This document shows, in pieces, positions 8,501 to 11,500 of a stretch of DNA of 22,394 nucleotides (position 1 is its first letter; each line of letters begins with the position of its first letter). Where the stretch lies: the IMG/VR virus record IMGVR_UViG_2627853701_000001. One strand, written 5' to 3'. The stretch comes from a virus. Lineage: Duplodnaviria > Heunggongvirae > Uroviricota > Caudoviricetes. A program made the position numbers.

Positions 8501-11500
8501 GCTTATCAGAGCGTGGAAACGTCAATCACTGGCTGCTTAATGGCGGTGGCTGGTTCTTTAATCTCGATTACGACAAAGAAATTCTGGCTAAAGCTCTTGC
8601 CCATAAAGCAGATGAACTTCCGTTAATCATCGAACTGGTGAGTAAAGGAAAAAAATATGTCATCTGCCACGCCGATTATCCTTGTGATAAATACGAGTTT
8701 GGAAAGCCAGTTGATCATCAGCAGGTAATCTGGAACCGCGAACGAATCAGCAACTCACAAGACGGGATCGTGAAAGAAATCAAAGGCGCGGACACGTTCA
8801 TCTTTGGTCATACGCCAGCAGTGAAACCACTCAAATTTGCCAACCAGATGTATATCGATACTGGCGCAGTGTTCTGCGGAAACCTCACATTGATTCAGGT
8901 ACAGGGAGAAGGCGCATGAGACTCGAAAGCGTAGCTAAATTTCATTCGCCAAAAAGCCCGATGATGAGCGACTCACCACGGGCCACGGCTTCTGACTCTC
9001 TTTCCGGTACTGATGTGATGGCTGCTATGGGGATGGCGCAATCACAAGCCGGATTCGGAATGGCTGTATTCTGTGGTAAGCACGAACTCAGCCAGAACGA
9101 CAAACAAAAGGCTATCAACTATCTGATGCAATTTGCACACAAGGTATCGGGGAAATACCGTGGCGTGGCAAAGCTTGAAGGAAATACTAAGGCAAAGGTA
9201 CTGCAAGTGCTCGCAACATTCGCTTATGCGGATTATTGCCGTAGTGCCGCTACGCCGGGCGCAAGATGCAGAGATTGCCACGGTACAGGCCGTGCGGTTG
9301 ATATAGCCAAAACAGAGCAGTGGGGGATAGTTGCTGAGAAAGAGTGCGGAAGATGTAAAGGCGTCGGTTATTCAAGAATGCCAGCAAGCGCCGCATATCG
9401 CGCTGTGACGATGCTAATCCCAAACCTTACCCAACCCACCTGGTCACGCACTGTTAAGCCGCTGTATGACGCTCTGGTTGTGCAATGCCACAAGGAAGAG
9501 TCAATCGCAGACAACATTTTGAATGCGATCACACGTTAGCGCCATGATTGCCACGGATGGCAACATATTAACGGCATAATATTGACTTTTTGAATAACTT
9601 TGGGGAAACTTGACACCAATAATGGGCGTTTTTTACATGTCATTGATGAGTCTCAATAACCTGCCGCCGAGTAGTTTTTATGCTCTGAATTGTATTTGTG
9701 TAGTAAACATGCTGACTGCAATGTAATAGAGTTTTTTTAGCCTGTAACCTCTTGACGGCATTGAATTGCTTTTGTTATGAGTTGTAAGCCAATGTTATCA
9801 TCTTGTATTGGGGTGGTTATGAAGGATGGTGCGCTGCTCAGGAGTTCTTCACTTTTTATTGCCTACATGGGATGCCTTGGATGGGGGAGTGCTTATTTCT
9901 ATGGATGGGGTACTTCTTTTTACTACGGCTTCCCATGGTGGATTGTAGGTGCAGGTGTTGATGATGTTGCCAGAAGTTTATTTTTTGCAGTTATCGTCAT
10001 TGCTATATTTCTTATCGGTTGGGGTATTGGTGTTGTATTCTTTTTCGCAGTGAAAAGAAAACATTCTATGCAAGAGCTAAATGTATTTCGCCTTTATTTT
10101 GCTGTGGAATTATTGTTTGTGCCGGCAATTATTGAGTTTTCTATATTGAGACAGAAGATTCAGGTACCTCTTTTGCTACTGTCAGCAGCGATTGCGCTGG
10201 CGGTCACAATTTCGATAAGATCTTATGGGCGATTTTTATCGGTATCATGCTTCTATGATAAGCCATTTATAAAAAAACATTTTTTTGAGATTGTGATGAT
10301 TGCTTTTGTGGCATATTTCTGGCTTTTTTCATTTCTGACAGGATATTACAAACCGCAGTTTAAGAAAGAATATGAAATGATTAATTATAATGATGGTTGG
10401 TATTATGTTCTTGCTCGTTATGATAATTGTCTGGTTTTGTCTACTTCTTTCAATGCAGGTAGTAAAAGGTTTGTGATTTATCAATCAGCACAAGATAAGA
10501 ATCTTCAGGTTGATATTGTAAGGACCAGAATTTAATTGGCTGCATAAATAATATTTTAAGTTGCAAGTTGGCTATTCGTAGGAATAGAACCTTAGGCATG
10601 CTGAATGCGTTTTCTGAACATTGTTTTATAAACTGTGTCTGCTTGCTGTTGTGATCCTGCTTTTAGTGATGGTGATGATGGATTTCACCAGCAGGATAAT
10701 GTTGGTACTGACTGATGGCGCTCTGGTCTGCGGCATTGTGGTATTGCTGTGGCCGGTGATAAAAAGAAACAGCCTGCATAATGCTTGATTTTTTTGTTTA
10801 CTGTTTATTAAAAATACTACTGCATGGTGAATCCCCCTGTGCGGAGGGGCAATCAGCAACCAGGTATATGTGATAATCGCGGATTCAGGTGCTGATACTG
10901 AATTCACCGGGAGGCACCCGGCACCATGCAAGAAAAAGAATGTGCATGCAAACATGCCCCTCTCCGGAGGGGCATTTTTTATGGGTAAAAAATGCCCGAA
11001 TGGGTTCGGGCAATAGCATGAGATACTGATATTGTTGTGTTGTTATCGTGTGGATTTTAACCAGGGTTTATCAGGCTGCGCAACTGCGTGGCCTTTTTTC
11101 ATTTCTTGGGCTGTAGTCCCCGTGTGTCATTCAGGCTTCCGGACTACAGCCCACTCCATATCTGATTTAATACACTATCCCGGCCGGGAGGAATAATGAC
11201 ATTTAAACATTATGATGTTGTCAGGGCGGCGTCGCCGTCAGACCTTGCGGAAAAGCTGACACACAAACTGAAAGAGGGCTGGCAGCCGTTTGGTAGTCCG
11301 GTGGCCATAACCCCTTATACCCTGATGCAGGTGATTACAGCAGAAGGTGATGTGGTGGTCAGTGGTGCAACTGAGCCGGATTGGTACTACGTCATCGTAC
11401 TGGCCGGGCAGTCCAATGCCATGGCTTACGGTGAAGGGCTTCCGCTGCCGGATTCATACGATGCTCCGGATCCGCGCATTAAACAGCTGGCGCGCCGCAG

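What the first reader, a model, noticed from the sequence alone, without database searches (positions are those of the whole stretch)
10800..11195. Dense cluster of hairpins in the 400 bp upstream of nanS-p
In this short stretch I see CCCC-ctgtgcgga-GGGG (about 10844), CCGGG-aggca-CCCGG (about 10900), a terminator-like GCCCCT/AGGGGC plus T6 (10956-10981), TGCCCGAA-tggg-TTCGGGCA (10993-11012) and a perfect 12-bp inverted repeat with 21-nt spacer (11108-11152). This is more structure than a single terminator needs and could be a structured 5' leader controlling nanS-p, a small RNA, or stacked terminators insulating morons from late read-through.
Basis: seen in the sequence. Interest (0 to 1): 0.4.

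Follow-up and report, generated by a model that had tools for sequence, protein, structure and literature searches.

The report
Two known convergent prophage small-RNA genes
The hairpin cluster upstream of nanS-p is real but mostly explained: it holds two already described Hfq-binding small-RNA genes of E. coli O157:H7 prophage Sp17 (STnc100/EcOnc06 on the + strand and the anti-GcvB RNA AgvB2 on the - strand), followed by a second terminator and a conserved, so far unnamed RNA hairpin in the nanS-p leader.

Summary
All five hairpins are at the stated coordinates and fold better than shuffled sequence. A sixth feature was missed: a + strand terminator at 11073-11100.

Rfam assigns 10796-10986 (+) to STnc100 (144.7 bits, gathering 47) and 11048-10987 (-) to AgvB (96.5 bits, 62/62 identical to the consensus). 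The window is 100% identical to Sakai prophage Sp17. Tree et al. 2014 described exactly this arrangement: convergent Hfq-bound sRNA genes downstream of the moron site.
- AgvB2 (EcOnc01b) is a characterised anti-GcvB RNA.
- EcOnc06, whose Northern probe matches window 10865-10899 at 34 of 35 bases, is the STnc100-type RNA (~177 nt).

So hairpins 1-3 are the body and terminator of STnc100, and hairpin 4 is the AgvB terminator on the opposite strand.

In 52 distinct homologues the STnc100 fold is kept, with 6 compensatory pairs.

The 13-bp inverted repeat (11107-11153) belongs to neither RNA. It shows compensatory changes and a G·U over A·C bias, which indicates a + strand RNA hairpin in the nanS-p leader. 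Its function is unknown.

Verdict: already known; low interest, with one small loose end.

The parts
9610..9638 (+). Context: lambda-like late promoter PR' (-35 TTGACA 9610-9615, 17-nt spacer, -10 TTACAT 9633-9638), just after the Q antiterminator gene (8916-9539).
   Evidence: Read directly from the sequence. Q is assigned by Pfam PF03589, E=4e-58. The promoter call is an inference from resemblance to lambda PR'. No intrinsic terminator was found between here and 10954.
10796..10986 (+). STnc100-family sRNA gene (= EcOnc06 of Tree et al. 2014; very probably STnc100_11 of the EDL933 catalogue). Closing stem 10822-10829/10922-10929; internal hairpins 10832-10849, 10881-10905 and 10907-10921; A-rich linker AAGAAAAAGAAUG at 10931-10943.
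   Evidence: Rfam RF02076, 144.7 bits against gathering 47, full length. In 52 distinct homologues 34 consensus pairs are kept, 6 with compensatory changes. The EcOnc06 Northern probe is the reverse complement of 10865-10899 with 1 mismatch.
10954..10981 (+). Terminator T1: the intrinsic terminator of the STnc100-type RNA, and the first intrinsic terminator downstream of PR'.
   Evidence: Terminator scan: 9 pairs plus T6. It is part of the Rfam model. Compensatory changes occur in its stem among homologues.
10987..11048 (-). AgvB2 (EcOnc01b), the anti-GcvB sRNA. Mapped 5' end at 11048; GcvB-R1 target mimic CACAACA at 11039-11033; terminator stem 11012-10993 with U6 at 10992-10987.
   Evidence: Rfam RF02702, 96.5 bits against gathering 56, 62/62 identical to the consensus. 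Fold z = -3.75. Tree et al. 2014 place AgvB2 in Sp17 and mapped its start. The window is identical to Sakai Sp17.
11054..11083 (-). Putative AgvB2 promoter: -10 TAAAAT (complement of 11054-11059) and -35 TTGCGC (complement of 11078-11083), with an 18-nt spacer. The -35 lies inside the T2 stem-loop.
   Evidence: Read directly from the sequence relative to the published start site. The CCTGGTTAAAAT block is conserved upstream of the AsxR- and EcOnc03-type genes. Inference, not tested.
11073..11100 (+).
   Evidence: Terminator scan: 9 pairs plus T6. Fold z = -2.52. It is kept in all 27 distinct leaders aligned. It is also present in loci that lack T1 and the anti-sRNA, where the STnc100 core runs on to it.
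11107..11153 (+). Conserved RNA hairpin in the nanS-p leader: 13-bp perfect stem with a 21-nt pyrimidine-rich loop. Function unknown.
   Evidence: I1. Fold z = -5.98. On 27 distinct sequences, 5 pairs carry compensatory changes and 12 compensatory cells were reached by 0 of 500 shuffles. G·U 36 against A·C 7 favours the + strand. No Rfam family matches.
11178..11198 (+). nanS-p ribosome-binding region: the small palindrome TCCCGGCCGGGA overlaps the Shine-Dalgarno GGGAGGA; start codon at 11196-11198.
   Evidence: (I10). The motif is conserved with loop variants (GGCC, GCCA, GGAAAG). Sequestration of the Shine-Dalgarno sequence is an inference.
11196..13049 (+). nanS-p (ECs_3498): prophage sialate O-acetylesterase with DUF1737, SASA and DUF6645 domains.

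Best explanation
The region is the sRNA module that sits just downstream of the moron insertion site of lambdoid prophages, here in Sp17 of E. coli O157:H7. It holds two independent, convergent, Hfq-binding sRNA genes whose terminators lie back to back.

(a) On the + strand is an STnc100-family RNA (EcOnc06, about 160-190 nt). A long-range stem closes a three-hairpin body. An A-rich single-stranded linker and terminator T1 follow.

(b) On the - strand is the 62-nt AgvB2. Its 5' CACAACA motif mimics a GcvB R1 target. According to Tree et al. 2014, it titrates GcvB and relieves repression of dppA.

(c) Downstream come a second + strand terminator (T2), which overlaps the AgvB promoter, and a conserved + strand hairpin in the nanS-p leader.

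Inferred mechanism for the whole stretch:
- In the lysogen both sRNAs are made.
- RNA polymerase not modified by Q, coming from PR' or the moron genes, stops at T1 and T2, so nanS-p and the lysis genes stay off.
- After induction, Q-modified polymerase reads through both terminators. It crosses the AgvB gene antisense and carries the hairpin in the nanS-p 5' UTR. There the hairpin most likely acts on RNA processing, stability or translation.

Shown here or in the literature: the identities, structures, conservation, expression and Hfq binding of the two sRNAs, and the anti-GcvB activity. Inferred: the insulating role of T1 and T2, the promoter assignments and the role of the hairpin.
For: Identity
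- Rfam gathering-level, full-length matches to STnc100 and AgvB (repeated).
- Window 10700-11250 is identical to Sakai Sp17, and the window region is 100% identical to EDL933 and many other O157:H7 genomes.

Published evidence
- Tree et al. 2014 (PMC4104026) report convergent sRNA genes downstream of the PR' moron site in Sp3, 4, 5, 9, 10, 11, 15 and 17. EcOnc01b (AgvB2) is in Sp17, has a mapped 5' end, is about 60 nt and is destabilised without Hfq. Anti-GcvB activity was shown with compensatory mutants and a competition phenotype.
- EcOnc06 (Sp17, same strand as nanS-p, Northern about 177 nt) has a probe complementary to window 10865-10899 at 34/35 bases, and perfectly to the Sp10 copy.
- The EDL933 RNA-seq/Ribo-seq catalogue lists a 189-nt STnc100 copy at 3.55 Mb on the minus strand, with 387 reads and 0 ribosome footprints.

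Conservation
- The same module follows stx1B, stx2B, tRNAs or Q in other phages.
- The STnc100 fold is conserved with compensatory changes.
- T2 and the hairpin are conserved, and the hairpin covaries.
- No intrinsic terminator lies between PR' and T1.
Against: - The function of the STnc100-type RNA is unknown. Whether its 5' end comes from its own promoter or from processing of the upstream mRNA is unresolved: no promoter is conserved at a fixed distance, and the Northern size (about 177 nt) does not fix the start.
- The insulating role of T1 and T2 and read-through by Q-modified polymerase are inferred from the lambda paradigm, not measured.
- Sp17 is a degraded prophage. IS elements disrupt the lysis genes and the morphogenesis genes are missing, so late read-through may no longer matter in this copy.
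- The published Hfq cross-link peak for EcOnc06 is in older genome coordinates. It can be placed inside STnc100 only after an estimated offset.
- In Sp4-type loci a longer - strand RNA (EcOnc08/21/42) covers the T2 and hairpin region. The hairpin could therefore also act in a - strand RNA in some lineages.
Confidence: 0.9

Rival explanations
1. The whole 400 bp is one structured cis-acting 5' leader (riboswitch, attenuator or thermosensor) that controls nanS-p expression.
For: All the elements lie directly upstream of nanS-p. STnc100 is on the same strand and is found upstream of nanS-p in nearly all loci sampled. The 11107-11153 hairpin and the small palindrome over the Shine-Dalgarno sequence could act in cis.
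Against: Two strong terminators separate STnc100 from nanS-p. One hairpin belongs to a - strand RNA. STnc100 is detected as a discrete Hfq-bound RNA of about 177 nt. STnc100 copies occur without an adjacent esterase and sometimes in tandem. No cis-regulatory Rfam family matches, even at E<=1.
Confidence: 0.06
2. The hairpins are only stacked transcription terminators (a tR'-equivalent barrier), and the short RNAs are by-products without a function of their own.
For: T1 and T2 are the first intrinsic terminators downstream of PR'. In Stx phages the PR'-tR' by-product was long regarded in this way.
Against: AgvB has its own promoter on the opposite strand and a demonstrated trans function. The STnc100 body upstream of T1 is strongly conserved: two hairpins are invariant in 52 sequences and other stems covary. 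That is not needed for termination. The relatives PasD1 and PasD2 have many Hfq-mediated partners.
Confidence: 0.1
3. The 13-bp inverted repeat (11107-11153) is a DNA-level site, such as a protein operator for the AgvB promoter or a recombination junction, rather than an RNA hairpin.
For: It is a perfect 13-bp repeat located -59 to -105 from the AgvB start. Module boundaries in these mosaic phages fall near it.
Against: The arm sequences change while complementarity is kept. The departures are mostly G·U on the + strand (36) rather than A·C (7). This is expected for an RNA helix on + and not for a protein-binding palindrome. Loop length varies from 11 to 27 nt, so the spacing between arms is not kept.
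Confidence: 0.12
4. The hairpins are a chance clustering with no function.
For: Short G+C-rich palindromes are common in prophage intergenic DNA.
Against: Fold z-scores range from -2.5 to -6, and the scan found 5 terminator-like sites against 1.3 expected. The matches reach Rfam gathering scores. The elements are conserved across many phages.
Confidence: 0.01

Closest known systems
AgvB (Rfam RF02702; EcOnc01a/b; Tree et al. 2014, Mol Cell 55:199)
   Same: Identical at all 62 positions to the family consensus. Same prophage (Sp17), same strand relative to nanS-p, same CACAACA mimic of a GcvB R1 target and same terminator. This is AgvB2 itself.
   Different: Nothing detectable. RefSeq does not annotate the gene in this locus.
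STnc100 (Rfam RF02076) = EcOnc06/05/27 in EHEC; related to PasD1/PasD2 of EPEC (Zhu, Shabalina & Storz 2026 preprint)
   Same: Full-length match and the same fold: a closing stem, an invariant CCCCC/GGGG hairpin, a covarying hairpin, an invariant CCGGG/CCCGG hairpin and a terminator. It occupies the same place, downstream of Q/moron cargo and upstream of the esterase or lysis genes.
   Different: The linker between the core and the terminator is one of at least five mosaic types. Here it is A-rich (AAGAAAAAGAAUG). The middle hairpin is of the short type. The function of the family is still unknown.
AsxR / EcOnc27 pair downstream of stx2B in Sp5 (933W-type Stx2 phages)
   Same: The same convergent two-gene module with back-to-back terminators, followed by T2, the hairpin and nanS-p.
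   Different: The anti-sRNA has a different 5' variable region (it targets FnrS, not GcvB). The upstream cargo is stx2AB rather than a 252-aa ORF plus DUF3927. The stem of the leader hairpin carries a U·U mismatch.
Lambda PR' - 6S RNA - tR' and StxS (Sy et al. 2020, PNAS)
   Same: A short, terminated, Hfq-binding RNA in the path of the Q-antiterminated late transcript. The terminators must be read through by Q-modified polymerase.
   Different: StxS and 6S RNA start at PR' itself. Here about 1.2 kb with two ORFs lies between PR' and the sRNA, and there is no sequence similarity to StxS.

Membership tests
STnc100 (RF02076) | Covariance-model match above the curated gathering score over the full model | tested here: met
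   144.7 bits against 47, model positions 1-206 of 206, E=1.8e-32.
STnc100 (RF02076) | Family secondary structure is formed and supported by covariation among homologues | tested here: met
   34 consensus pairs in 52 distinct sequences with almost no broken cells; 6 pairs with compensatory changes. Four such pairs in a 20-sequence set.
STnc100 (RF02076) | Expressed as a discrete, untranslated, Hfq-associated RNA | not testable with these tools
   Literature only. EcOnc06 has a Northern of about 177 nt and an Hfq CRAC peak. Its probe matches the window at 34/35 bases. An EDL933 STnc100 copy at 3.55 Mb has 387 RNA-seq reads and 0 ribosome footprints.
STnc100 (RF02076) | Lambdoid prophage context downstream of Q or moron cargo | tested here: met
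   Q (PF03589) lies at 8916-9539, and the element lies after two moron ORFs and before nanS-p. The same place is used in Stx1, Stx2 and non-Stx phages.
AgvB (RF02702) | Covariance-model match above the gathering score | tested here: met
   96.5 bits against 56; 62/62 identical to the consensus.
AgvB (RF02702) | 5' variable region carries the GcvB R1 target consensus CACAACA | tested here: met
   CACAACA lies at RNA positions 10-16 (window 11039-11033, - strand), read. The motif is as defined in Tree et al..
AgvB (RF02702) | Conserved ~42-nt 3' region with a Rho-independent terminator | tested here: met
   Stem 11012-10993 plus U6; fold z = -3.75.
AgvB (RF02702) | Encoded in Sp10 or Sp17 of O157:H7, convergent to the + strand sRNA | tested here: met
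   The window is identical to Sakai Sp17. The Sp10 copy was fetched and carries the same 62 nt.
AgvB (RF02702) | Antagonises GcvB in vivo | not testable with these tools
   Shown by Tree et al. 2014 with reporters, compensatory mutants and competition in rectal mucus.
Cis-regulatory leader / riboswitch of nanS-p | Match to a described cis-regulatory RNA family | tested here: not met
   Permissive Rfam search of 10400-11400 (E<=1) gave only a sub-threshold Phe_leader hit on the T1 terminator (26.8 bits against 55) and nothing at 11101-11195.
Cis-regulatory leader / riboswitch of nanS-p | One continuous transcript from the structured region into the gene in the uninduced state | tested here: inconclusive
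   Two canonical terminators intervene, but termination efficiency was not measured.
tRNA genes (common at this position in Stx phages) | Cloverleaf detected by ARAGORN or Rfam | tested here: not met
   No tRNA in the window. The only ARAGORN hit is the tmRNA at 21335-21697.

The most novel reading that the evidence does not exclude
The T2 terminator plus the 11107-11153 hairpin may form an undescribed, conserved cis-acting RNA module in the 5' UTR of nanS-p. The stem keeps its pairing through compensatory changes. The loops are pyrimidine-rich and carry anti-Shine-Dalgarno-like CUUCC/CUCCU runs. Such a module could set processing, stability or translation of the esterase mRNA once Q-modified polymerase reads through. 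Separately, late read-through transcripts are perfectly antisense to AgvB and carry a GcvB-R1-like GU-rich stretch (weak Rfam GcvB hit). Prophage induction could therefore switch off, or reverse, the anti-GcvB activity.
Probability: 0.3. Interest if true: 0.4.

Novelty: already known. Interest (0 to 1): 0.18.

Why it matters
The finding lands on a locus of real biological interest. AgvB2 helps E. coli O157:H7 compete in bovine rectal mucus by neutralising the core regulator GcvB. The STnc100/PasD family is among the most abundant Hfq-associated prophage RNAs in EHEC and EPEC, and PasD2 is also a top CsrA-associated RNA in EPEC. All of this is published, so the scan adds no discovery here.

It has two practical uses. 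First, RefSeq leaves this intergenic region without any RNA annotation, so a naive reader sees unexplained hairpins. Second, the comparative data gathered here point to a conserved second terminator and a covarying leader hairpin in front of nanS-p that I did not find described in the papers read for this report. They are cheap to test with existing Term-seq and dRNA-seq data.

Tried and rejected
- tRNA genes, which are common at this position in Stx phages: ARAGORN and Rfam find none here.
- Riboswitch or leader families: the permissive Rfam search found nothing credible.
- Coding potential of the 54-aa ORF 11032-11196, which ends on the nanS-p start codon. Rejected because homologous leaders differ by loop indels that are not multiples of three (loops of 21, 24, 25, 27 and 11 nt), and because the ORF spans a terminator.
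- ECs_3499 (10626-10955, - strand). It is antisense to DUF3927 and STnc100, has no Pfam hit and was dropped by PGAP. It is probably a spurious call.
- An STnc100 promoter conserved at a fixed distance. A conserved TTTRTTAAAA block sits 8-10 nt before the closing stem, and a TTGAC(A/T) sits 24 nt further up in some phages. The spacing does not fit sigma-70, and the upstream flanks differ between contexts. Left unresolved.
- The CsrA-sponge idea for STnc100. GGA motifs are present, but the A of the first one varies (GGA, GGC, GGT) and the count is not above expectation. Kept only as a literature lead.
- Direct placement of the published EcOnc06 Hfq peak. Its coordinates refer to NC_002695.1. Comparison of AgvB1 positions shows an offset of about +137 to +146 bp at 1.94 Mb, so the peak can be placed only approximately, within the 3' half of STnc100.
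- Two pattern scans failed through my own pattern errors.
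Full report
**1. The observation**

- CCCCC/GGGG lies at 10832-10849.
- CCGGG-AGGCA-CCCGG lies at 10907-10921.
- A canonical terminator has its stem at 10954-10975 and T6 at 10975-10980.
- TGCCCGAA-TGGG-TTCGGGCA lies at 10993-11012.
- The perfect inverted repeat is 13 bp rather than 12 (11107-11119 / 11141-11153, 21-nt spacer).

The 10993-11012 hairpin is preceded by A6 and not followed by a T-run, so it is a terminator for the minus strand. There is also a further + strand terminator at 11073-11100.

The cluster is not chance. The scan found five terminator-like sites against 1.3 +/- 1.2 in shuffles. 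Fold z-scores range from -2.5 to -6.0, with 0-2 of 200 shuffles folding as well.

**2. What it is**

A Rfam scan of the whole window gave two gathering-level, full-length matches inside the finding (repeated with permissive settings).
- STnc100 (RF02076) at 10796-10986 on the + strand: 144.7 bits, gathering score 47.
- AgvB (RF02702) at 11048-10987 on the - strand: 96.5 bits, gathering score 56, identical to the family consensus at all 62 positions.

ARAGORN found no tRNA here.

Hairpins 1 and 2 are internal stems of the STnc100-type RNA. Hairpin 3 is its terminator (T1). Hairpin 4 is the terminator of AgvB, which is transcribed towards it from the other side.

**3. Where the window comes from**

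The region is 100% identical to E. coli O157:H7 EDL933, Sakai and many other O157 genomes. In Sakai it is prophage Sp17, integrated next to ssrA. The tmRNA at window 21335-21697 abuts the annotated Sp17 boundary.

The gene order is:
- Q antiterminator (8916-9539);
- a 252-aa hypothetical ORF;
- a DUF3927 ORF (10621-10788);
- the sRNA module;
- nanS-p (11196-13049);
- holin and an IS-disrupted lysis region;
- T3SS effector genes.

RefSeq annotates no RNA gene in the 10789-11195 gap.

**4. What is already published**

Tree et al. 2014 (PMC4104026) cross-linked Hfq to RNA in strain Sakai. They reported that the DNA downstream of the Q-antiterminated PR' promoter, which tolerates moron insertions, "carried convergent sRNA genes" in Sp3, 4, 5, 9, 10, 11, 15 and 17.

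EcOnc01a and EcOnc01b are encoded in Sp10 and Sp17 respectively and were renamed AgvB1 and AgvB2. For them the paper reports:
- mapped primary 5' ends and a length of about 60 nt;
- destabilisation without Hfq;
- a CACAACA mimic of a GcvB R1 target;
- relief of GcvB repression of dppA, demonstrated with compensatory mutants;
- a contribution to competitiveness in bovine terminal-rectal mucus.

Their Table S2 lists EcOnc06 in Sp17 on the nanS-p strand, about 177 nt on Northern blots. Its probe is the reverse complement of window 10865-10899 with one mismatch, and it matches the Sp10 copy perfectly. EcOnc06 is therefore the STnc100-type RNA of this locus.

Other published data on the family:
- An EDL933 RNA-seq/Ribo-seq study lists eleven STnc100 copies. 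The only one beyond 3 Mb (3,553,828, minus strand, 189 nt) has 387 transcript reads and no ribosome footprints. By position, strand and length this is very probably the present copy.
- Zhu, Shabalina and Storz (2026 preprint) relate STnc100 to the EPEC RIL-seq sRNAs PasD1 and PasD2. They place PasD2 upstream, and PasA downstream, of the sialic-acid esterase gene.
- PasD1 and PasD2 are Hfq-dependent and have many RNA partners.
- PasD2 is the most abundant sRNA partner in a CsrA interactome.
- STnc100 was also detected in STEC outer-membrane vesicles and noted 75 nt downstream of stx2.

**5. Comparative analysis done here**

I collected 80 phage loci through the nanS-p N-terminus, 120 more through a leader pattern and five annotated phage records.

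STnc100 is present on the nanS-p strand in almost all representatives. It lies after stx1B, stx2B, tRNA genes or Q, and sometimes occurs in two tandem copies. In many loci an AgvB-, AsxR- or EcOnc03-type gene follows it immediately on the opposite strand.

In 52 distinct STnc100 sequences, RNAalifold recovers the Rfam fold with 34 pairs and almost no broken cells.
- Six pairs show compensatory changes. They lie in the closing stem 10822-10829/10922-10929, the hairpin 10881-10905 and T1.
They give no covariation evidence, but they indicate sequence-level constraint.

The segment between the core and T1 is mosaic, with at least five unrelated versions. Here it is AAGAAAAAGAAUG, four A-R-N triplets. 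[quoted passage not shown] It is a candidate seed or Hfq site, but this is inference.

**6. The parts that belong to neither sRNA**

*T2 (11073-11100).* T2 is conserved in every leader examined. It is also present in loci that lack T1 and the anti-sRNA, where the STnc100 core simply runs on to it. This suggests that the unit of T1 plus anti-sRNA was inserted into an older STnc100-T2 gene. Relative to the published AgvB start, the best -10 is TAAAAT (complement of 11054-11059). The -35, TTGCGC (complement of 11078-11083), lies inside the T2 stem-loop. Where the anti-sRNA is absent, the T2 loop differs and the TTG is lost. This is inference.

*The 11107-11153 repeat.* The repeat was aligned in 27 distinct versions.
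- Five of its 14 pairs show compensatory changes. The 12 compensatory cells were reached by 0 of 500 shuffles, and sliding the partners destroys pairing (88% falls to 30-40%).
- Departures from Watson-Crick pairing are G·U on the + strand 36 times and A·C 7 times. This points to an RNA helix in the + strand transcript, that is, the nanS-p 5' UTR.
- The loops differ in length (11-27 nt) and sequence, but they are pyrimidine-rich.
- In the commonest Stx2-type version the stem carries one or two U·U mismatches, so the constraint is not absolute.
- In Sp4/Sp15-type loci a longer - strand RNA (EcOnc08/21/42; its probe lies on the T2 region) may also contain it.

No Rfam family covers the repeat. 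The 54-aa ORF that spans it is not conserved in frame.

**7. How it most likely works**

*In a lysogen.*
- AgvB2 is made from its own promoter and titrates GcvB (published).
- The STnc100-type RNA is made and binds Hfq (published). Its targets are unknown.
- A lambda-like PR' is recognisable at 9610-9638. I found no intrinsic terminator between it and T1, even with relaxed criteria.
- T1 and T2 are therefore the first barriers to unmodified polymerase. They would keep nanS-p and the lysis genes silent, while allowing the two moron ORFs, and possibly a 3'-end-derived STnc100 RNA, to be expressed. This is inference from the lambda PR'/tR' paradigm and from StxS.

*After induction.* Q-modified polymerase should read through T1 and T2. 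It would transcribe across the AgvB gene in antisense and place the conserved hairpin at the front of the nanS-p message. Whether the hairpin protects a processed 5' end, is a nuclease site, or modulates the nearby Shine-Dalgarno sequence cannot be decided here. In Sp17 itself the late region is decayed, so the sRNA genes are probably the part still under selection.

**8. Comparison with known systems and novelty**

AgvB2 is the published gene itself. The + strand RNA is a member of STnc100/EcOnc06. The arrangement is the same as the AsxR/EcOnc27 pair behind stx2B in Sp5.

The 'leader controlling nanS-p' option fits at most the last hairpin.

Novelty: already known. The only pieces I did not find described in the papers read are T2 as a conserved second terminator overlapping the anti-sRNA promoter, and the covarying leader hairpin. 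These are minor and testable with existing Term-seq and dRNA-seq data.

Noticed in passing
window 9580-9640: A lambda-like PR' region (TATTGACTTTTTGAATAACTTTGGGGAAACTTGACACC...TTACAT) follows Q. No tR'-type terminator follows within 1.3 kb, so the 252-aa ORF and the DUF3927 ORF may be expressed constitutively from PR' in the lysogen.
   Followed up: partly
window 10626-10955 (- strand): Sakai annotates a 109-aa ORF here (ECs_3499), antisense to DUF3927 and to most of STnc100. It has no Pfam hit and is absent from PGAP annotations, so it is probably a spurious gene call.
   Followed up: partly
window 10970-10997: The T-tract of T1 and the A-tract in front of the AgvB terminator form a perfect 12-bp inverted repeat (GGGCATTTTTTA / TAAAAAATGCCC). 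In a read-through + strand RNA this could pair and compete with both terminator hairpins.
   Followed up: no
window 10987-11100 (+ strand): The + strand opposite AgvB carries a GU-rich GcvB-R1-like stretch (UGUUGUGUUGUU) and ends in T2. Rfam gives sub-threshold GcvB (20.7 bits) and OmrA-B (20.9 bits) hits here. Any T1 read-through RNA would be both antisense to AgvB and GcvB-like.
   Followed up: no
L040, L048, L055, L070 (about 140-310 nt upstream of nanS-p): One group of prophages lacks T1 and the anti-sRNA. The STnc100 core continues for about 60 nt to the T2-type terminator. A different leader follows, with its own hairpin (GACCA...TGGTC) and a third terminator-like CCGGTTCCGG + T5. This suggests that T1 plus the anti-sRNA is an inserted cassette.
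   Followed up: partly
L072 601-791 and 1069-1278; L050 222-415 and 691-879: Some phage contigs carry two tandem STnc100 copies upstream of nanS-p.
   Followed up: no
STnc100 homologues (window 10930-10953 equivalent): The segment between the conserved core and the terminator exists in at least five unrelated versions that recombine freely with different middle hairpins. This is the pattern expected if it is an exchangeable seed.
   Followed up: partly
window 11032-11196 (+): A 54-aa TTG-start ORF ends in TAATG, overlapping the nanS-p start codon. It spans T2 and the hairpin, and its frame is not conserved in homologues, so it is not a gene.
   Followed up: yes
window 16159-16275 (-) and about 13900-17700: An ALIL pseudoknot (the IS3-family frameshift signal of IS1203/IS629) lies here, and the endolysin gene is disrupted by IS elements. 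Sp17 is a decayed prophage lacking morphogenesis genes, yet it carries the T3SS effector genes espW, espM2 and DUF1076 (NleG-like) genes.
   Followed up: partly
window 21335-21697 (-): The tmRNA gene ssrA (292.8 bits) lies here. Its 3' end coincides with the annotated Sp17 boundary in Sakai, which marks the prophage attachment site.
   Followed up: partly
NC_002695.1 versus NC_002695.2: Published EcOnc coordinates (2014, version .1) are shifted by about 137-146 bp at 1.94 Mb relative to the current RefSeq version. Literature coordinates cannot be transferred directly.
   Followed up: partly
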